The notes under the pieces are model-generated. The model was not told the origin of the DNA. It was given only the letters and a program-made list of their open reading frames with translations, and did no database searches. The translations under genes were made by a program, and so were the position numbers. From positions 1 to 58,033 of the forward strand of contig JABICB010000009.1 in assembly GCA_018652475.1 (NCBI GenBank): a stretch of 58,033 nucleotides of DNA, written 5' to 3'. This document shows positions 1,608 through 16,497 of this stretch, in pieces (position 1 is the first letter of the stretch; every line of letters begins with the position of its first letter). The DNA comes from an archaeon (GTDB lineage: Archaea; Nanobdellota; Nanobdellia; SCGC-AAA011-G17; PNOQ01).

Positions 1608-1617
1608 TTTCAGTTAA

Positions 1618-1626
1618 TTTTATAAA
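1618..1626 (+). promoter_or_regulatory. TATA box (TTTATAAAA) ~26 nt upstream of ATG 1648 (leaderless-type spacing)
   Basis: Sequence and spacing. Confidence 0.5.
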
Positions 1627-1647
1627 ATATCTTTTTAAGTTATCTTT

Positions 1648-2880
1648 ATGAAGAGTATGTTTTTGATTTTACTAATTATTTGTATGCCTTTTGTTTATTC
1701 TATAGATATTGAAGAAATTTCTACTCTTGGAGGAAATTTAGGGGGCGAAGAAAGTATTACTCGTTATGTTTATGGTTTAAATGGGCTAGTTGCTTCAGTA
1801 AAAGATAATAAGATAAGATATCATCAGAATGATCGTATTGGGAGTAATCGTTTGATAATAGATGACTTTGGATTAGTTAAAAATAAATTTAAATCTTTAC
1901 CTTTTGGACAGGAAATCGAGAATACGGGAATAAAATTTAGTTTTGCAACTGGAAAAGAATTAGATGATTCTGGTTTGTATTATTTTGGTGCCAGGTATTA
2001 TGATTCTGATTTGGGCAGGTTTATATCTGTTGATCCAGTTCCTTCCGAGCCTGCATATCAATATGTTTCTAATAATCCTTTGAATTTAGTAGATTTGAAT
2101 GGGAATGAACCTTCTGTGTATAATTCTCAGACAGGTAATAAATTTCCAAATCCTATTAGTATCAATGATCTTGGAACTAAGTCATTTAATACTCAGCTTT
2201 ATATTTTTGATGAATTTATTGAATATAAAGGAGGGGCTTTATCAGAAGGTATAACTCTGAATATTGGTGCAGAGGGAAATAATGCTAGAGTTTCTACCAA
2301 TACTATAAATCTAAAAAGTAATGCCCATCCTAGTGCATTCGCTCATGAATTCGAACACCTCAGAACAGCTGGCACGAGAGGGGCTCTACGTGAGGGATTA
2401 GCATTCAAAGAAGGAGGATTATTTACTCAACACCTTAATAAAAAGTATAAGACAAATTTACATATTAATTCTGCTGAACGTGCTGCTATGAATGGTCCGA
2501 ACTCTTTTTTCAATTGGTATACTGACAAAAGTCCTTACTTGAAAGGTTATCCAGAACATAGTCCTTGGAATGCTGCAAAGGAGCTTGGACAAAGTAGATT
2601 ATTTAATCTTCCAAGAATTGCTAGGGCGACTGCATTTCAAAAATTATCTTCAACTTCATATAAGGGGGCAGCTAGCATTTTAGGTGCTTCATCAAAACTT
2701 CTTGGTGTAGCAGTGGTGGCGACTGCAATGGGATCAAGTGGGTTTTCAGTAGGTAATTTAAATGATAAAATACTTCAGTTTCAACCCGATCAGATGAAAT
2801 TAAACAGTTGCATGAGGTGCCATTCTTTTCAAGCTGTTGAAAATCAAGAACAGTATGGAGGGTGGAGTAATAAATATTAA
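1648..2880 (+). CDS. secreted RHS repeat-associated-core protein with C-terminal HExxH metallopeptidase-like domain (mini-RHS 1)
   Basis: Signal peptide MKSMFLILLIICMPFVYS. Core motifs YHQNDRIGSNRL, LPFGQE, GLYYFGARYYDSDLGRFISVDP, NNPLNLVDLNG. HEFEH encoded at 2344..2358. Gly/Ala-rich hydrophobic stretch near the C-terminus. Confidence 0.8.
   Translation: MKSMFLILLIICMPFVYSIDIEEISTLGGNLGGEESITRYVYGLNGLVASVKDNKIRYHQNDRIGSNRLIIDDFGLVKNKFKSLPFGQEIENTGIKFSFATGKELDDSGLYYFGARYYDSDLGRFISVDPVPSEPAYQYVSNNPLNLVDLNGNEPSVYNSQTGNKFPNPISINDLGTKSFNTQLYIFDEFIEYKGGALSEGITLNIGAEGNNARVSTNTINLKSNAHPSAFAHEFEHLRTAGTRGALREGLAFKEGGLFTQHLNKKYKTNLHINSAERAAMNGPNSFFNWYTDKSPYLKGYPEHSPWNAAKELGQSRLFNLPRIARATAFQKLSSTSYKGAASILGASSKLLGVAVVATAMGSSGFSVGNLNDKILQFQPDQMKLNSCMRCHSFQAVENQEQYGGWSNKY
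1747..2103 (+). repeat. dispersed 357-nt (119-codon) RHS-core module, copy 1
   Basis: Alignable codon-for-codon with 5726..6082 and 12510..12866. A 66-nt run at 1958..2023 is identical to 12721..12786. Confidence 0.85.
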
Positions 2881-3457: not shown

Positions 3458-4120
3458 ATGAATAAAATTAAAAAATCACTATTAACTGCTGGTATGTTAG
3501 GTTTGTTAGGATATGGGATGTTAACAAATCCTCCTAAATTAATTAGTAGTTCTGAGTTTGATGATAATGGGGTGAATTTGGAGTTGAGATTGGATTCTAC
3601 TTCATTTTTAGATATATCTGATAAGGAAATGGGATTGTCAAGAGAGAGAGTTGAATCTCTATTTTCTAATAATGGTGCTAGTTGTGCAGGGGCACTTTCA
3701 GTTTGTTATGCTGAAGTATTTAGGGGAAGAAGATTTGGCGGATTGATTGGTGCACATTATAAAGGGGATAATGGTGGAGTTTATGGTAATGCTTGGGATA
3801 TGAGAGATAATGTTATTTCACAGGGTGGAGAAGTAATATATTCTGGTGATTATGATAATTTCAAATCTATAGATTTCGATATAGGTTCACTTAGTTCAGG
3901 AGATATTCTTGGAATTTATTATGATGGAAGTAATTATAAAAAACCTGCGAAGGAATCCTTGGGTGATAATTATTACACTCATGTGGGTTTAATAATTGGA
4001 GAAAATGATTTAAATGAACCCATTATTATACATTATGTGAACAAACAGTTAATTGTTGAACCCTTGAAAGATTTAATTGATAAAAAAGATTACTCCCTTA
4101 AGGAAGTTTTCAGACCTTAA
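3458..4120 (+). CDS. secreted/anchored NlpC/P60-CHAP-like papain-fold hydrolase
   Basis: N-terminal hydrophobic anchor. Cys (ASCAGAL), GNAWDMRDN, YTHVGLII and IIHY align with the C-terminal domain of 5612..6727 (QCARGV, GNAWDMRKN, YTHVGFVV, IAHF), giving a Cys-His-His arrangement. Confidence 0.6.
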   Translation: MNKIKKSLLTAGMLGLLGYGMLTNPPKLISSSEFDDNGVNLELRLDSTSFLDISDKEMGLSRERVESLFSNNGASCAGALSVCYAEVFRGRRFGGLIGAHYKGDNGGVYGNAWDMRDNVISQGGEVIYSGDYDNFKSIDFDIGSLSSGDILGIYYDGSNYKKPAKESLGDNYYTHVGLIIGENDLNEPIIIHYVNKQLIVEPLKDLIDKKDYSLKEVFRP

Positions 4121-5611: not shown

Positions 5612-6727
5612 ATGAAAAGAGGTTTTGTATTAGTTTTAGCATTTTTGTTATGTATTAGTTTTGTTAGTGCAAAAATTCCTATTAAAGATATTTCCGTTTC
5701 AGAAATTAATATTGATGAGCAAAGGGAAGAAAGTATTACTCGTTATATCTATGGGCTAAATGGTTTAGTTGCTTCTGTATCTGATTCTGGGATTAATTAT
5801 TATCATTCTGATAGATTAAAAAGTAATAGATTAATAACTAACTCTTTTGGTGAAATTATTAAACAGTTTAACTCCTTGCCTTTTGGGCAGGAAATTGAGA
5901 ATACTGGAATAAAATTTAGTTTTGCGACTGGAAAAGAATTAGATGAAAGTGATCTTTATCATTTTGGTGCACGTTATTATGATTCTGATTTGGGCAGGTT
6001 TACATCTATTGATCCAGTTAAAGAAAATCATGCTTATTCTTATGTTAGAAATAATCCTATGAATTTAGTTGATCCTAATGGTAGGGATGCTGTCAGTTTA
6101 AAACAAATTAATCTTCCTTCTGGTTATACTAATAATATTTTTGAATCTATGAGGGCTAATTTTGAGAATGTACACAATGCCGGCAAATATCAATGTGCAA
6201 GAGGGGTGAGTTATGCATATCAAACTTGGGCAGATATATCTAAAGATGAAAGAATTAAAAATACTAAGGTAACTGGTAATGCGTGGGACATGAGAAAAAA
6301 TATTGATAATTCAATATTAACAAAAAAGGTTACAGCTTATTCCGATTTTACTTCTGAAGAATTAAATTTATTTAAAGAAGGTGATATAATAGGAATTTAT
6401 AATCGTGATAGCAGTTATAATACTGCTGCAAAGGTGAAATTAGGTAACAATAATTATTATACTCACGTAGGTTTTGTTGTTGATGTTTTAAAAGATGGTA
6501 ATCCTATTATTGCACATTTTATAAAAGATACTATGAAAGTTGAAACTCTTTCTAATCTATTATCGGGGAAATTCGAATTTAGGGAATTATTGCGTCCAAA
6601 TCATTCTATTCAAGTAAACCTTAGGGAATGGTCTAAAGAGTATAAAGAAACTGGAAGTTCATCTATTAATACTTTTCACCACACAGTATCAGATAATCTG
6701 CCTGTAGAATTGCCTATTCCAGATTAG
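5612..6727 (+). CDS. secreted RHS repeat-associated-core protein with C-terminal NlpC/P60-CHAP-like domain (mini-RHS 2)
   Basis: Signal peptide ending VSA-K. Core motifs YYHSDRLKSNRL, LPFGQE, LYHFGARYYDSDLGRFTSIDP, NNPMNLVDPNG. The C-terminal domain is homologous to 3458..4120. Confidence 0.8.
   Translation: MKRGFVLVLAFLLCISFVSAKIPIKDISVSEINIDEQREESITRYIYGLNGLVASVSDSGINYYHSDRLKSNRLITNSFGEIIKQFNSLPFGQEIENTGIKFSFATGKELDESDLYHFGARYYDSDLGRFTSIDPVKENHAYSYVRNNPMNLVDPNGRDAVSLKQINLPSGYTNNIFESMRANFENVHNAGKYQCARGVSYAYQTWADISKDERIKNTKVTGNAWDMRKNIDNSILTKKVTAYSDFTSEELNLFKEGDIIGIYNRDSSYNTAAKVKLGNNNYYTHVGFVVDVLKDGNPIIAHFIKDTMKVETLSNLLSGKFEFRELLRPNHSIQVNLREWSKEYKETGSSSINTFHHTVSDNLPVELPIPD
5726..6082 (+). 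repeat. dispersed 357-nt RHS-core module, copy 2
   Basis: Aligns with copies 1 and 3. Long identical runs with copy 3 extend up to the DPxG junction, and similarity ends after it. Confidence 0.85.
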
Positions 6728-6762: not shown

Positions 6763-7257
6763 ATGGAAGAATTTCGTAAGTTAGTGGCGAAGGCAAATAA
6801 ACATTATAAAATTGCAGATCATATGACTTATGTAAGTTATAGACTATTAACTGACTTAAAAATTTTAATTAATGTTATTGAAAATATCAACAAGTCTTTG
6901 AAAGGTGGTGTTGATGCTTTATTGAAGTTAGATTACATTTACAAAAGAGTTAATTCCTATCCGCCTACTTTTGATGAAAGATTTATTTTATTTAAACAAC
7001 ATTGTATGAATCGTTATAAAATTGGAACTGAACAAATGTTATTGATTAGGGAATTAGATAGTATTTTAGCTCAGTATAAAAAAAGTCCAATGGCCTTTAC
7101 TCGTAATGAAAAGTTTGTTATTTATTCGGACGGATATAAAACTATGGAAACTTTGGATTTGAAAATTGTCAAATCTTATCTTTTAAAAGCAAAGGTTTTT
7201 ATATTAATATTGAATAATATACTACAAGAGAAGAATGCAGACTATAGACTTAGCTAA
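6763..7257 (+). CDS. hypothetical helical protein, paralogue of 7235..7675 (HEPN-like helical domain?)
   Basis: KIADHMTYVSY ... SYPPTFDERF pattern shared with the next ORF and with the C-terminal domains of the NTase proteins at 36925 and 45145. Overlaps the next gene. Confidence 0.55.
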   Translation: MEEFRKLVAKANKHYKIADHMTYVSYRLLTDLKILINVIENINKSLKGGVDALLKLDYIYKRVNSYPPTFDERFILFKQHCMNRYKIGTEQMLLIRELDSILAQYKKSPMAFTRNEKFVIYSDGYKTMETLDLKIVKSYLLKAKVFILILNNILQEKNADYRLS

Positions 7258-7675
7258 AGAGGAATTAAAACGTGTTGATCATATGTTCTATGTTAGTTTA
7301 AAATATACTAGGACTTGTGACGTCATTAGGAATATCATCAATAGGATGATAGCATCATATAATTATGTCTTTTCAGCAATTTTAGAGGATTTAGAATCTG
7401 ATGATAAAATTAGCGCTATACCTACTCATGATAGATTACGTGCGGAGAAAGTATTAGAATTGAAAAAAAATCATAAAGAATTCATCCAGCATTATTTTTT
7501 ATTGAGAAAAATTCATGATGCTGAATTCGATAGGCGTGAAGAATATAGAAAACATGTTACTTTGCTTGCCAAGTTCGGAGAGGATACAATCTTCGAAGTA
7601 AATGTTCCCTTAATTTTAGATTATTATAAAAAAGTCATAGAATATATAAAAATGGTTGAAGAGGAATTAAAATGA
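7235..7675 (+). CDS. hypothetical helical protein, paralogue of 6763..7257
   Basis: KRVDHMFYVSLKY ... AIPTHDRLRAEKVL. Its start overlaps the upstream stop and its stop overlaps the minD ATG (ATGA). Confidence 0.55.
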   Translation: MQTIDLAKEELKRVDHMFYVSLKYTRTCDVIRNIINRMIASYNYVFSAILEDLESDDKISAIPTHDRLRAEKVLELKKNHKEFIQHYFLLRKIHDAEFDRREEYRKHVTLLAKFGEDTIFEVNVPLILDYYKKVIEYIKMVEEELK

Positions 7676-12398: not shown

Positions 12399-13571
12399 AT
12401 GAAAAGGGGTCATGTACTGGTGTTAGTATTTTTGTTATGTATCAGTTTTGCTAGTGCAAAAGTTTCTATTAAGGATATTTATTCAGGGGGTGATCTTGAT
12501 GAGCAAAGGGAAGAAAGTATTACTCGTTATATTTATGGGTTAAATGGTTTAGTTGCATCTGTATCTAATTCTGAGATTAATTATTATCATTCTGATAGAT
12601 TAAAAAGTAATAGGGTTGTTAGTGATGAAGATGGTCAACTAGTTAGTAAATTCAAATCATTACCTTTTGGACAGGAAATTGAAAACACTGGAATTAAATT
12701 TAGTTTTGCAACTGAAAAGGAATTAGATGATTCTGGTTTGTATTATTTTGGTGCCAGGTATTATGATTCTGATTTGGGCAGGTTTACATCTGTTGATCCA
12801 GTTAAAGAAAATCATGCTTATTCTTATGTTATGAATAATCCAATGAATTTAGTTGATCCTACTGGTATGGCTGGGACTACTATTATTCCTGATGACTCTA
12901 CTTTTATAGGCCCATTAGAAGAAGATAAAATGTATGCTTCGGATTATTTATTTTCTTGGTATTCCGGTTTATCTTCTGGTGAACAAAATACCCTGCTTAA
13001 TGCAGGTGCAGGAAGTTTAGTAACTGATGAATTAACGGGAAATTCTATCACTGGATATAGTAAGGGTGGACATAAGGGTTTAAAAATCAGTATTAATAAT
13101 TATTTTACATTATTATTTAAAATTAATAAAGAGGTACCCAATAATAAAATTTCTTTTTCTGATATTATCATTACAGAAGTTTCAAGGCATCAAACGGGGA
13201 GCGATATACATTCTAATATTAAATCAGATGGGAGTACCATAGCATTTCAACCAGATGTTGCTAGCAATCAACAATTATATTTGACTAAAAAACCCGGATC
13301 AAACACTAGATCTGAATTTCAAACGTTGAAGACTGGCAAGGATTTAACTAATGTGTTAGATGTAGATAGTTTAACTGCAAAACATAAATATACTAATAAA
13401 ATGGATTATGCCCAAATCCATGGTATTGGATGTTCAATAGGTTGTTATATGACTTCTAATGCAAGGGTTATTTCAAACTATATTAGTAATTCTAATACTA
13501 AATATAATAATGTTATTCGAGCTGCTGGTTTTGTAAATGCGCTTCCTTTATTTATAAAAAATATACAATAA
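12399..13571 (+). CDS. secreted RHS repeat-associated-core protein with unrecognised C-terminal domain (mini-RHS 3)
   Basis: Signal peptide ending ASA-K. The core module is near-identical to copy 2 (YYHSDRLKSNRV, LPFGQE, LYYFGARYYDSDLGRFTSVDP, NNPMNLVDPTG). The 235-aa tail has no recognisable motif. Confidence 0.8.
   Translation: MKRGHVLVLVFLLCISFASAKVSIKDIYSGGDLDEQREESITRYIYGLNGLVASVSNSEINYYHSDRLKSNRVVSDEDGQLVSKFKSLPFGQEIENTGIKFSFATEKELDDSGLYYFGARYYDSDLGRFTSVDPVKENHAYSYVMNNPMNLVDPTGMAGTTIIPDDSTFIGPLEEDKMYASDYLFSWYSGLSSGEQNTLLNAGAGSLVTDELTGNSITGYSKGGHKGLKISINNYFTLLFKINKEVPNNKISFSDIIITEVSRHQTGSDIHSNIKSDGSTIAFQPDVASNQQLYLTKKPGSNTRSEFQTLKTGKDLTNVLDVDSLTAKHKYTNKMDYAQIHGIGCSIGCYMTSNARVISNYISNSNTKYNNVIRAAGFVNALPLFIKNIQ
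12510..12866 (+). repeat. dispersed 357-nt RHS-core module, copy 3
   Basis: See copies 1 and 2. 12721..12786 is identical to 1958..2023. Confidence 0.85.

Positions 13572-13688: not shown

Positions 13689-16483
<2,795 letters not shown>

Positions 16484-16497
<14 letters not shown>

What the first reader, a model, noticed from the sequence alone, without database searches (positions are those of the whole stretch)
1648..2880. Shell-less 'mini-RHS' 1: signal peptide + RHS-associated core only + HExxH C-terminal domain
Seen in sequence: a cleavable-looking signal peptide is followed directly by about 119 aa matching the RHS repeat-associated core. The core motifs are YHxxDRxGSNRL, LPFGQE, GLYYFGARYYDSDLGRFISVDP and NNPLNLVDLNG. 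No YD/RHS repeat shell precedes it. After the DxNG boundary come 258 unrelated residues with HEFEH (2344..2358) and a Gly/Ala-rich hydrophobic tail. Established: in characterised Rhs/Tc proteins this core plugs a shell of more than 1000 aa and carries the aspartyl autoprotease that frees the C-terminal toxin at the DPxG boundary. Inference: this is a secreted, self-cleaving delivery module that works without a shell. In a DPANN-like archaeon it could be an effector aimed at a host or competitor. Polymorphic-toxin-like loci have been predicted in archaea, so the unusual points are the minimal architecture and the multiplicity in one small region.
Basis: partly seen in the sequence, partly recalled or inferred. 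Interest (0 to 1): 0.78.

Follow-up and report, generated by a model that had tools for sequence, protein, structure and literature searches.

The report
Shell-less RHS-core secreted effector, archaeal
A tiny symbiotic-type archaeon (Woesearchaeota) carries many small secreted proteins that keep only the self-cutting end piece of the large bacterial "RHS" toxin cage, joined to an ever-changing cargo domain. This suggests either a stripped-down toxin delivery module or the detachable plug of a cage encoded by a separate gene.

Summary
ORF 1648..2880 (410 aa) has a Sec-type signal peptide and an 18-aa linker. About 118 aa then match the RHS-associated core (TIGR03696, 63 bits against a cutoff of 32.5; TccC2/TccC3/YenC2 at E~1e-12). 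Both catalytic-position Asp residues are present (D129, D149). An unrelated 257-aa C-terminus follows, with HEFEH at 2344..2358.

No YD shell precedes the core, and this is not a truncation. The window holds three paralogs. About 57 loci in 14 DPANN assemblies, nearly all labelled Woesearchaeota or 'archaeon', show the same signal peptide-core-variable C-terminus layout. Their 53 C-termini fall into 46 clusters. The genes sit in conserved slots between housekeeping genes.

"Works without a shell" is not shown. Five related genomes encode large secreted YD/SpvB proteins that lack the core, one directly upstream of a mini-RHS gene. One DPANN protein fuses shell, dockerin, linker, core and toxin.

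The metallopeptidase reading is weak. No model or structure matches, and there is one marginal relative with an aligned HExxH.

Caveats: copy 1 has DLNG, not DPxG, and a second assembly frameshifts it at codon 68.

Verdict: a new variant of RHS polymorphic toxins. Interest 0.6.

The parts
1617..1628 (+). A/T-rich TATA-like box (TTTTATAAAATA), about 20-30 nt upstream of the ATG. Suggests the gene has its own archaeal promoter and a near-leaderless mRNA.
   Evidence: Read directly from the sequence. Not tested further.
1648..2880 (+). Mini-RHS copy 1, whole ORF (410 aa + stop).
1648..1701 (+). Predicted Sec signal peptide, aa 1-18 (MKSMFLILLIICMPFVYS | ID).
   Evidence: Hydrophobicity window and -3/-1 rule. 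The same N-terminus is present in 37 of 41 family members.
1753..2106 (+). RHS-associated core module, aa 36-153. It comprises the last two or three YD-type beta-hairpins plus the aspartyl-protease 'plug'.
   Evidence: TIGR03696 at 63.2 bits. Aligned to TccC3/TccC2/YenC2 C-terminal plugs. dN/dS is 0.28-0.35 between paralogs.
2032..2034 (+). D129 codon (SVDP). Equivalent to the first DPxGL Asp, TccC3 D651.
   Evidence: Alignment. Invariant in the family. DP in 49 of 51 relatives.
2092..2106 (+). Second protease motif, D149-L-N-G-N153. Predicted self-cleavage after N153, so the cargo would start at E154.
   Evidence: Aligned to TccC3 DPDGL. Cleavage rule and D1338N data for Rhs1 are in PMC8636562. 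Asp-Asp spacing is 20 in 50 of 51 relatives. L at position 2 occurs in only 2 of 51.
2107..2664 (+). Orphan cargo domain, aa 154-339, with HEFEH at 2344..2358 at the start of a predicted long helix.
   Evidence: No homolog other than itself. No family hit. Marginal relative in L047 with aligned HExxH. Helix 228-267 in the single-sequence AF2 model, which has low confidence.
2665..2877 (+). Mobile C-terminal tail module, aa 340-410. It has a Gly/Ala-rich hydrophobic segment, GNLND, and a CMRCH (CxxCH) motif at 2809..2823.
   Evidence: Homologous tail on the unrelated JAB-like cargo of the L038 mini-RHS, and a separate 91-aa ORF right after the L036 mini-RHS.
5612..6727 (+). Mini-RHS copy 2 (371 aa). 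Same signal peptide + core, with a papain-like (CHAP/NlpC-P60-type) cargo.
12399..13571 (+). Mini-RHS copy 3 (390 aa). Same signal peptide + core, with an unrelated orphan cargo.
3458..4120 (+). Stand-alone secreted or membrane-anchored homolog of the copy-2 cargo domain (220 aa), with no RHS core.
   Evidence: tblastn 33% identity over 163 aa, E=1e-17. Weak Peptidase_C92 hit.

Best explanation
ORF 1648..2880 is one member of a lineage-specific family of Sec-exported polymorphic effectors, expanded in Woesearchaeota. Of the RHS apparatus it retains only the C-terminal core: the last YD hairpins plus the aspartyl-protease plug.

Proposed course:
1. The signal peptide takes the protein across the membrane.
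2. The roughly 118-aa core folds.
3. Its two conserved aspartates (D129, D149) cut the chain just after the second motif (DLNGN|E154), as in TcC and Rhs proteins.
4. This frees a 257-aa cargo.

The conserved core also serves as the common recombination handle onto which unrelated cargo domains are swapped.

The cargo of this copy has two parts. The first is an orphan, largely helical domain with a possible zincin HExxH site. The second is a separately mobile hydrophobic/CxxCH tail.

Copies 1 and 3 have no neighbouring immunity gene, and several family cargos are peptidoglycan-hydrolase-like. The likely targets are therefore other organisms (bacteria or the host cell surface) rather than kin.

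Shown: the architecture, the family, the cargo hypervariability, the genomic setting, and conservation of the catalytic residues.
Inferred: export, self-cleavage, toxicity and target.
For: - Core identity: TIGR03696 at 63.2 bits against 32.5. The PDB alignment to TcC/Rhs plugs includes both Asp positions. The cleavage rule comes from PMC8636562.
- Family: 128 relatives in species-representative genomes. The best 57 loci are all from 14 DPANN assemblies, with at least 10 copies in some.
- Size and layout: most complete family ORFs are 340-430 aa with the signal peptide directly before the core; a minority of 430-560 aa carry a low-complexity stalk in between. Bacterial hits are mostly 1400-3000 aa.
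- Catalytic conservation: D129, P130, D149 and G152 are invariant. Asp-Asp spacing is 20 in 50 of 51.
- Selection: dN/dS is 0.28-0.35 on the core.
- Cargo hypervariability: 53 C-termini form 46 clusters. DNA identity drops from about 0.9 to about 0.45 exactly at the boundary, with conversion tracts inside the core. Within-genome cores are more alike than same-slot cores of other genomes.
- Cargo types in the family: CHAP, pesticin-lysozyme, LysM; NlpC/P60+LysM and Tox-MPTase2; Peptidase_M91 and a GDSL lipase as precomputed Pfam labels.
- Setting: the genes occupy variable slots in a conserved housekeeping array (proteasome | slot | Sec61beta-NAC | slot | ...MinD-HisRS... PIN | slot | GyrB). 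The flanking genes are backbone genes, not immunity genes.
- The gene has its own TATA-like box.
- Bacterial signal-peptide + core proteins without YD repeats also exist in Dyella.
Against: - No experiment shows that an RHS plug can fold or cleave outside a shell. In solved structures it is buried in the barrel (PMC8636562).
- AF2 with a 29-sequence alignment gives only pLDDT 55, and the plug part falls below 50.
- Copy 1 has DLNG instead of DPxG.
- Copy 1 is frameshifted in a second assembly.
- Coreless YD shells are encoded in related genomes. The module may therefore not act alone.
- Most cargos, including this one, have no recognisable toxin fold.
- Some family members do have conserved small downstream genes that could be immunity genes, such as the L013/L015 pair.
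Confidence: 0.5

Rival explanations
1. Split RHS/Tc-like cocoon. The mini-RHS is the detachable plug-plus-toxin subunit of a cage whose YD-repeat shell is encoded by a separate secreted gene. In some genomes an SpvB/TcB-like piece is also encoded separately. Many interchangeable plug-toxin proteins would share one shell, by analogy with the two-gene TcB+TcC cocoon.
For: - All five large YD-repeat ORFs found within 10 kb of mini-RHS genes in five Woesearchaeota genomes lack the RHS core. Pfam shows RHS_repeat on all five, with SpvB on two and CBM_4_9 on two, and they carry signal peptides.
- In the complete genome CP060219.1, a 1145-aa shell gene is followed 6 nt after its stop by a mini-RHS gene. 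An 1898-aa SpvB/RHS gene and three more mini-RHS genes lie just upstream.
- L033 ('Nanoarchaeum sp.') is a Rosetta-stone fusion of YD shell, dockerin, acidic linker, core and cargo in one ORF.
- The isolated core is not predicted to fold confidently. In known structures the plug is buried inside the shell.
Against: - No YD-repeat ORF occurs in the 58-kb window. The strict YD motif count is 0 and the largest ORF is GyrA.
- None occurs in the flanks of the closest relatives, with about 100 kb of JABHIB01 loci examined.
- Mini-RHS genes are scattered among housekeeping genes, not in operons with shells.
- Both partners would have to assemble after Sec export, and a 250-aa cargo would have to be threaded into a pre-made shell. 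There is no precedent for this.
- Three of the five shells, like the fused L033 protein, end in dockerin-like tails. This suggests a different role in surface attachment.
Confidence: 0.27
2. The C-terminal domains are not toxins but secreted or surface-displayed enzymes and binding domains used for host attachment, cell-wall remodelling or scavenging. The RHS core would then be merely a cleavable pro-region or stalk tip.
For: - No immunity gene lies next to copies 1 and 3, and tandem mini-RHS genes have no intervening gene.
- Some relatives have long N-glycosylation-sequon or acidic stalks between the anchor and the core.
- Recognisable cargos are mostly hydrolases or glycan binders: CHAP, NlpC/P60, LysM, lysozyme-like and lipase.
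- A core-less stand-alone homolog of the copy-2 cargo sits at 3458..4120.
Against: - Extreme cargo turnover occurs at fixed loci. Bona fide toxin families appear on close cores, namely Tox-MPTase2 and pesticin-like domains. Both are hallmarks of conflict systems.
- Peptidoglycan hydrolases in an organism without peptidoglycan are themselves weapons against bacteria (PMC12352652).
Confidence: 0.15
3. These are orphan or decaying fragments of full-length rhs genes. They would be silent C-terminal cassettes kept for recombination, or pseudogenes.
For: - NCBI annotates relatives as 'RHS repeat-associated core domain-containing protein, partial'.
- Some copies are disrupted, including L017 and L007 slot 1. 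Copy 1 is frameshifted in a second assembly.
- The homology break at DPxG is sharp, as in bacterial orphan arrays.
Against: - Each copy has its own start codon, signal peptide and upstream TATA-like box.
- The core is under purifying selection.
- Length is uniform at 340-430 aa across 14 genomes.
- No full-length rhs with a core was found in these loci for the cassettes to recombine into. The shells seen are coreless.
Confidence: 0.06

Closest known systems
Rhs / YD-repeat polymorphic toxins (e.g. Photorhabdus laumondii Rhs1, P. aeruginosa RhsP/Tse5, Gram-positive WapA)
   Same: - RHS-associated core with two Asp-containing motifs.
- A hypervariable C-terminal domain that starts right after the second motif.
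- Multiple paralogs per genome, with a conserved region acting as a recombination handle.
- In WapA-type proteins, Sec-type export.
   Different: - No YD-repeat cocoon in the polypeptide (about 118 aa instead of more than 1000 aa).
- No N-terminal plug, PAAR or VgrG adaptor.
- No adjacent immunity gene for this copy.
- Archaeal (DPANN) host.
- Motifs are degenerate: DPVPS and DLNGN instead of DPxGL, with 15 rather than 17-18 residues between them.
Tc toxin B and C subunits (TcdB2-TccC3, YenB-YenC2)
   Same: - Best sequence matches of the core in the PDB (E~1e-12).
- Aspartyl autoprotease that releases the C-terminal hypervariable region.
- A precedent that one cocoon can be built from two separately encoded proteins.
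- SpvB-domain and RHS-repeat proteins are encoded near mini-RHS genes in some Woesearchaeota.
   Different: - TcC itself contributes about 600 aa of shell, which the window protein does not.
- No TcA-like injector was found.
- Any shell partner would have to be joined after Sec export.
- No shell gene occurs in this window.
Orphan rhs-CT / cassette arrays of Enterobacteria and bee-gut bacteria
   Same: Short ORFs that keep only the end of the core plus a new toxin domain, with a sharp homology break at DPxG.
   Different: Bacterial orphans lack start signals and export signals, lie directly downstream of a full-length rhs gene, and come with immunity genes. The genes here have their own signal peptide and promoter-like box, are dispersed among housekeeping genes, and are under purifying selection.
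Self-cleaving 'releasing peptidase' modules of polymorphic toxins (HINT, ZU5, PrsW etc.; Zhang et al. 2012, PMC3482391)
   Same: A compact domain placed just before the toxin, with the proposed role of freeing the toxin after export.
   Different: The RHS core has so far been treated as part of the shell, not as an independent releasing domain. Independent activity is unproven.
Zincin metallopeptidase toxins (Tox-MPTase families, Peptidase_M91)
   Same: HExxH lies at the start of a predicted helix. Related cores elsewhere carry Tox-MPTase2 or a precomputed Peptidase_M91 label.
   Different: The cargo of this copy matches none of these models. The third metal ligand is not identifiable, and only one marginal relative exists.

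Membership tests
RHS/YD-repeat polymorphic toxin | RHS repeat-associated core domain (TIGR03696) near the toxin boundary | tested here: met
   63.2 bits against a cutoff of 32.5, residues 85-152. Copies 2 and 3 likewise.
RHS/YD-repeat polymorphic toxin | Long array of YD/RHS repeats forming a beta-cocoon (more than about 600-1000 aa) N-terminal to the core | tested here: not met
   No RHS_repeat or TEN_YD-shell hit, even at E<=10. Only about 45 residues of hairpins lie before the core. The signal peptide ends 17 residues upstream. The same holds for the ~50 archaeal family ORFs examined, apart from the fused L033 protein.
RHS/YD-repeat polymorphic toxin | Two DPxGL-type motifs with the catalytic Asp in the second, followed by cleavage | tested here: inconclusive
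   Both Asp residues are present and align to TccC3 D651/D674, and both are invariant in the family. In this copy the motifs read DPVPS and DLNGN, and L at position 2 occurs in only 2 of 51 relatives. Cleavage itself is not testable with these tools.
RHS/YD-repeat polymorphic toxin | Hypervariable C-terminal domain starting at the motif boundary | tested here: met
   Alignment breaks at DPxG. 46 clusters among 53 C-termini. DNA identity collapses at the boundary.
RHS/YD-repeat polymorphic toxin | Cognate immunity gene immediately downstream | tested here: not met
   Downstream of copy 1 lie Sec61beta and NAC. Copy 3 is followed by gyrB. The ORFs after copy 2 are conserved backbone genes that are present even where no mini-RHS is.
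RHS/YD-repeat polymorphic toxin | N-terminal trafficking element (PAAR/VgrG-binding, T7SS, or signal peptide) | tested here: met
   Sec-type signal peptide by heuristic. No dedicated predictor was available.
Tc-type split cocoon (TcB + TcC) | Separately encoded shell-forming partner (SpvB/RHS-repeat protein) linked to the core-toxin gene | tested here: not met
   Not present in the 58-kb window. Present in five related genomes, and directly adjacent in one. The rest of this genome could not be searched.
Tc-type split cocoon (TcB + TcC) | Physical assembly of the partners with the toxin enclosed | not testable with these tools
   No multimer prediction was allowed, and no experiment was possible.
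Zincin metallopeptidase | HExxH in an active-site helix | tested here: met
   HEFEH at aa 233-237, at the start of predicted helix 228-267 in a low-confidence model.
Zincin metallopeptidase | Significant similarity to a peptidase family or structure, and an identifiable third ligand | tested here: not met
   No Pfam, NCBIfam or PDB hit. No homologs were found from which to judge conservation, except the L047 cargo at pairwise E=3e-4. E250 and E256 are only candidate ligands.

The most novel reading that the evidence does not exclude
DPANN archaea run a modular, trans-assembling RHS/Tc-like system. One or a few secreted coreless YD shells, some with SpvB, carbohydrate-binding (CBM) or dockerin parts, accept any of a dozen separately secreted 'plug + cargo' proteins. 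The mini-RHS genes in this window would be such proteins. This would be the first RHS cocoon whose plug and toxin are supplied in trans and exchanged at the protein level rather than by recombination, and it would be used by an episymbiotic archaeon against its host or neighbouring bacteria.
Probability: 0.25. Interest if true: 0.85.

Novelty: new variant of a known kind. Interest (0 to 1): 0.6.

Why it matters
RHS and Tc toxins are understood as cages, with the shell regarded as the delivery device and the core as its plug.

A large family under purifying selection that keeps only the plug challenges that view in one of two ways. Either the aspartyl-protease core is an autonomous self-cleaving module that can be reused on its own, or RHS cages can be assembled from separately exported parts.

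Either answer is directly testable with a 410-aa protein.

It also gives genome-reduced Woesearchaeota a large, fast-evolving secreted arsenal, with at least 10 genes per roughly 1-Mb genome. Several members have peptidoglycan-hydrolase-like cargos. This bears on the open question of how DPANN archaea interact with hosts and bacteria.

Annotation pipelines currently label these genes 'partial', so they are easily overlooked.

Tried and rejected
- **Homolog searches for the cargo (aa 153-410).** The word-indexed search of 5.8 billion proteins found only the protein itself. The exhaustive HMMER search of 1.84 billion representatives found itself plus a spurious repetitive protein, P0032.
- **AF2 of the full protein without an alignment.** Mean pLDDT was 35, so the model is unusable.
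- **AF2 of the N-module.** The allowed 29-sequence alignment gave pLDDT 55. Foldseek then listed Rhs, teneurin and Tc structures first, but at TM~0.3, which is not informative.
- **Profile of CT1 plus the L047 cargo against the PDB.** Nothing relevant was found.
- **Metagenome scan with the shell C-terminus.** The derived pattern was a generic YD repeat and returned ordinary bacterial Rhs at 28-38% identity. The scan was wasted for the linkage question.
- **Viral contigs.** Only distant hits at 27-38% identity, so the family is not virus-borne.
- **orf6763 and orf7235 as immunity genes for copy 2.** Rejected. They are conserved backbone genes, present next to NAC even where no mini-RHS is inserted.
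- **Stop-codon recoding to explain the in-frame ORF after the L036 mini-RHS.** Rejected. All the stops are TAA, and the small ORF has its own ATG.
- **The shared 'TRYxYG' strand at shell ends and mini-RHS starts as evidence for a precise fission point.** Dropped, because every YD hairpin looks alike.
- **Length distribution from the profile search.** All 120 listed hits are shorter than 300 aa and the window's own copies are missing. This looks like a property of the search, so it was not used.
- **Literature.** No paper in the library combines DPANN or Woesearchaeota with RHS or YD repeats. Makarova et al. 2019 (mBio) could not be opened.
Full report

ORF 1648..2880 (+ strand, ATG start, 410 aa) is present. 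HEFEH is at aa 233-237 = nt 2344-2358. The Gly/Ala-rich hydrophobic stretch is at aa 340-369.

The N-terminus MKSMFLILLIICMPFVYS|ID has a basic residue, a 13-residue hydrophobic core, and V/S at -3/-1. This was judged by rule only, because no signal-peptide predictor was available.

NCBIfam TIGR03696 (Rhs_assc_core) matches residues 85-152 at 63.2 bits against a cutoff of 32.5. phmmer against the PDB aligns residues 37-152 to the C-terminal plug of TccC2, TcdB2-TccC3, YenC2 and mosquito SGS1 at E=1e-12 to 1e-9.

In the TccC3 alignment, D129 (SVDP) and D149 (VDLNG) fall on the two aspartates of the DPxGL motifs. For Photorhabdus Rhs1, the second-motif Asp (D1338) is required for C-terminal cleavage, and the toxin starts five residues after it (PMC8636562). 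By that rule the cut here would be N153|E154.

No RHS_repeat or YD-shell model matches the N-terminal 160 aa, even at E<=10. Only 17 residues separate the signal-peptide cut from the first core-homologous strand. The architecture is as described.

**2. It is not a truncation artefact, and it is a family.**

tblastn finds two paralogs in the window, at 5612..6727 and 12399..13571. Their first ~155 aa are 62-77% identical, and their C-termini are unrelated.

A protein search with the N-module returned many short proteins. They begin with MKK plus a hydrophobic segment, run straight into the core, and diverge right after VDPxG.

A scan of one genome per species found 128 relatives. The best 57 loci are all from 14 DPANN assemblies, nearly all labelled Candidatus Woesearchaeota or 'archaeon'. 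Several genomes hold at least 10 copies.

Most complete ORFs in those loci are 340-430 aa, with 95-125 residues before YYFGAR. A minority of 430-560 aa carry a stalk or membrane anchor before the core. Bacterial hits are mostly 1400-3000 aa classical Rhs. 37 of 41 complete archaeal ORFs pass the signal-peptide heuristic.

D129, P130, D149 and G152 are invariant. The Asp-Asp spacing is 20 in 50 of 51, and the residue before the predicted cut is Met in 29 of 51. dN/dS over the core between the three window copies is 0.28-0.35.

A TATA-like box lies about 20-30 nt upstream of the ATG.

**3. Polymorphic behaviour and genomic setting.**

53 complete C-termini fall into 46 clusters.

DNA identity between the window copies is 0.8-0.95 up to gene nt ~480 and about 0.45-0.5 after it. 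A 120-nt tract that is 88-97% identical between copies 1 and 3 looks like gene conversion. Cores within a genome resemble each other more than cores in the same slot of other genomes. For example, the two L007 slots are 98% identical, against 57-77% across genomes.

The first 15.6 kb of the window is syntenic with five Woesearchaeota loci. The order is: proteasome subunit | slot 1 | Sec61beta, NAC | slot 2 | orf6763, orf7235, MinD, HisRS, ScpA-like, S27ae, S24e, RpoE', PIN | slot 3 | GyrB.

Mini-RHS genes are present, absent, doubled, or carry different cargos in these slots.

The genes after copy 1 (Sec61beta, NAC) and after copy 3 (gyrB) are housekeeping genes. The two ORFs after copy 2 are backbone genes that are also found where no mini-RHS is inserted. 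None of the three window copies therefore has an adjacent immunity gene.

A few relatives do have co-varying small downstream genes, such as L013/L015.

**4. What the cargos are.**

Recognisable cargos are few:
- CHAP/papain-like (window copy 2);
- pesticin-type lysozyme;
- LysM;
- a T9SS-type sorting tail;
- DUF4846;
- on close cores from metagenomes, LysM+NlpC/P60 and Tox-MPTase2, and by precomputed Pfam labels Peptidase_M91 and a GDSL lipase.

Archaeal peptidoglycan hydrolases have been shown to kill bacteria (PMC12352652). Woesearchaeota have been proposed to attack bacteria (PMC9723730).

The cargo of copy 1 is an orphan. It has no homolog in the 5.8-billion or 1.84-billion protein libraries apart from itself, and no Pfam, NCBIfam or PDB match.

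HExxH would occur in about 1% of shuffles of this domain. Across the family it occurs in 3 of 53 cargos (expected 0.29, P=0.005), each 77-89 residues from the boundary. The L047 cargo aligns to CT1 at 28% identity over 101 aa (pairwise E=3e-4), with HExxH, RGxLxE, GPxxF and KSxYxxYPE in register. After correcting for about 50 comparisons this is marginal. A zincin-like enzyme is possible but not demonstrated.

The last ~70 aa form a separate mobile module: a Gly/Ala hydrophobic segment, GNLND, and CMRCH. A homologous tail ends the unrelated JAB-like cargo of the L038 mini-RHS. In L036 it is a separate 91-aa gene that starts two codons after the toxin's stop. Its role is unexplained. It could be a membrane anchor, a helper or an immunity-like partner.

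**5. The shell question.**

The window has no YD-repeat ORF.

In five other mini-RHS-bearing genomes, the 10-kb flanks contain large secreted YD-repeat ORFs of 640 to more than 1900 aa. None of them has the RHS core. Pfam confirms RHS_repeat on all five, with SpvB on two and CBM_4_9 on two.

In the complete genome CP060219.1, a 1145-aa shell gene is followed 6 nt after its TAG stop by a mini-RHS gene with its own membrane anchor. An 1898-aa SpvB/RHS protein and three further mini-RHS genes lie upstream.

L033 ('Nanoarchaeum sp.') encodes YD shell, dockerin, acidic linker, core and cargo in one reading frame.

Other relatives insert only low-complexity stalks between the anchor and the core. 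These are NxT sequon repeats or acidic repeats, not YD repeats.

AF2 on the N-module with 29 sequences models the hairpins at pLDDT 70-80, but the plug falls below 50. In solved Rhs structures the plug is buried in the barrel.

Together these points keep open a split, Tc-like arrangement in which the shell is supplied in trans. Against it:
- the mini-RHS genes of this lineage are dispersed among housekeeping genes;
- no shell was seen in about 100 kb of the closest relative's loci;
- assembly would have to follow Sec export.

Bacterial signal-peptide + non-YD-domain + core proteins in Dyella also lack shells.

**6. Caveats specific to copy 1.**

Its second motif is DLNG, and L at that position occurs in only 2 of 51 relatives.

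A JGI contig of 41.6 kb with identical gene order calls the gene as 68 aa + 342 aa with a 4-nt overlap. This is reproduced by removing one T from the TTT at 1850-1852. The window's intact frame is homologous to the paralogs on both sides of that point, so it is the ancestral state. Whether the frameshift is an assembly error or a real variant is unknown.

**7. Conclusion.**

The most likely account (about 0.5) is this. The gene encodes a Sec-exported polymorphic effector. Its retained RHS core acts as a self-cleaving carrier and recombination handle for a swappable cargo. The family is expanded in Woesearchaeota and is probably aimed at non-kin targets.

The main rival (about 0.27) is that these proteins are plug-toxin subunits for separately encoded coreless shells.

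I found no description of either arrangement for archaea in the searchable literature. The key archaeal survey (Makarova et al. 2019) could not be read. NCBI labels relatives as 'partial' RHS-core proteins.

I rate it a new variant of a known kind, with interest 0.6.

Noticed in passing
window 1850-1852 (within ORF 1648..2880): A JGI contig (sample 3300072015, 41,576 bp, same gene order) splits this gene into 68 aa + 342 aa (P0001, TTG start at L69). This fits TT instead of TTT in cgTTTga. It could be an assembly error or a real frameshift variant of copy 1.
   Followed up: partly
window 2665-2877; L038 2567-2734; L036 11183-11458: The hydrophobic Gly/Ala + GNLND + CxxCH tail of copy 1 is a mobile ~70-aa module. 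It is fused to an unrelated JAB-like cargo in L038 and encoded as a separate 91-aa gene right after the toxin gene in L036. Its function is unknown. The only weak Pfam echo is the heme-binding Tll0287 region (E=0.09).
   Followed up: partly
window 3458-4120: A stand-alone 220-aa protein with an N-terminal hydrophobic segment and a papain-like domain. It is homologous to the cargo of mini-RHS copy 2 (33% identity, E=1e-17), so the same domain exists with and without the RHS core in one locus.
   Followed up: partly
L042 11294-16987; L046 6143-9577 and 9581-11176 (CP060219.1, about 485-496 kb); L022 5361-7865; L035 3-2333; L036 3-1931; L045 4639-10467: Large secreted YD-repeat proteins in Woesearchaeota, some with SpvB or CBM_4_9 domains, all lack the RHS core. 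Three of the five end in dockerin-like repeats. One is followed 6 nt after its stop by a mini-RHS gene.
   Followed up: partly
L033 2-2623 (PNOQ01000025.1, 'Nanoarchaeum sp.'): A single ORF fuses YD shell, dockerin-like repeats, a ~170-aa acidic linker, the RHS core and a cargo. It is a Rosetta-stone link between coreless shells and mini-RHS proteins.
   Followed up: partly
L050 9626-10930; L051 9590-10921; L042/L046 mini-RHS genes: Long-N variants insert low-complexity stalks between the signal or anchor and the core. These are NIT/NxT sequon repeats or DVVKN acidic repeats. This suggests glycosylated surface display of the core.
   Followed up: no
window genes 1648.. and 12399.., gene nt 240-360: DNA of copies 1 and 3 is 88-97% identical over about 120 nt inside the core, while the flanks are 52-72% identical. 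This is a likely gene-conversion tract.
   Followed up: partly
window 6763-7257 and 7235-7675: Two small overlapping ORFs (164 and 146 aa) of unknown function are conserved at 64-68% identity upstream of the MinD-like gene in four close Woesearchaeota loci, and more weakly (35-50%) in a fifth. They are weakly similar to each other and are not immunity genes.
   Followed up: partly
window 15592-16497: A 301-aa ORF with a lipoprotein-like N-terminus sits between gyrB and gyrA and overlaps both ends.
   Followed up: no
L017 10001-11122; L007 1820-2983: Some family members are broken into two ORFs, by a frameshift or a stop inside the core or cargo. There is therefore turnover or pseudogenisation within the family.
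   Followed up: no
L063 9521-11014; L073 9554-10945 (Dyella): Bacterial proteins with a signal peptide, a ~140-aa non-YD domain, the RHS core and a cargo. Shell-less core proteins are therefore not confined to archaea.
   Followed up: no
(database behaviour): All 120 listed hits of the profile search are shorter than 300 aa, and the window's own 371-410-aa copies were not returned. NCBI names relatives 'RHS repeat-associated core domain-containing protein, partial [archaeon]', even in the middle of long contigs.
   Followed up: no
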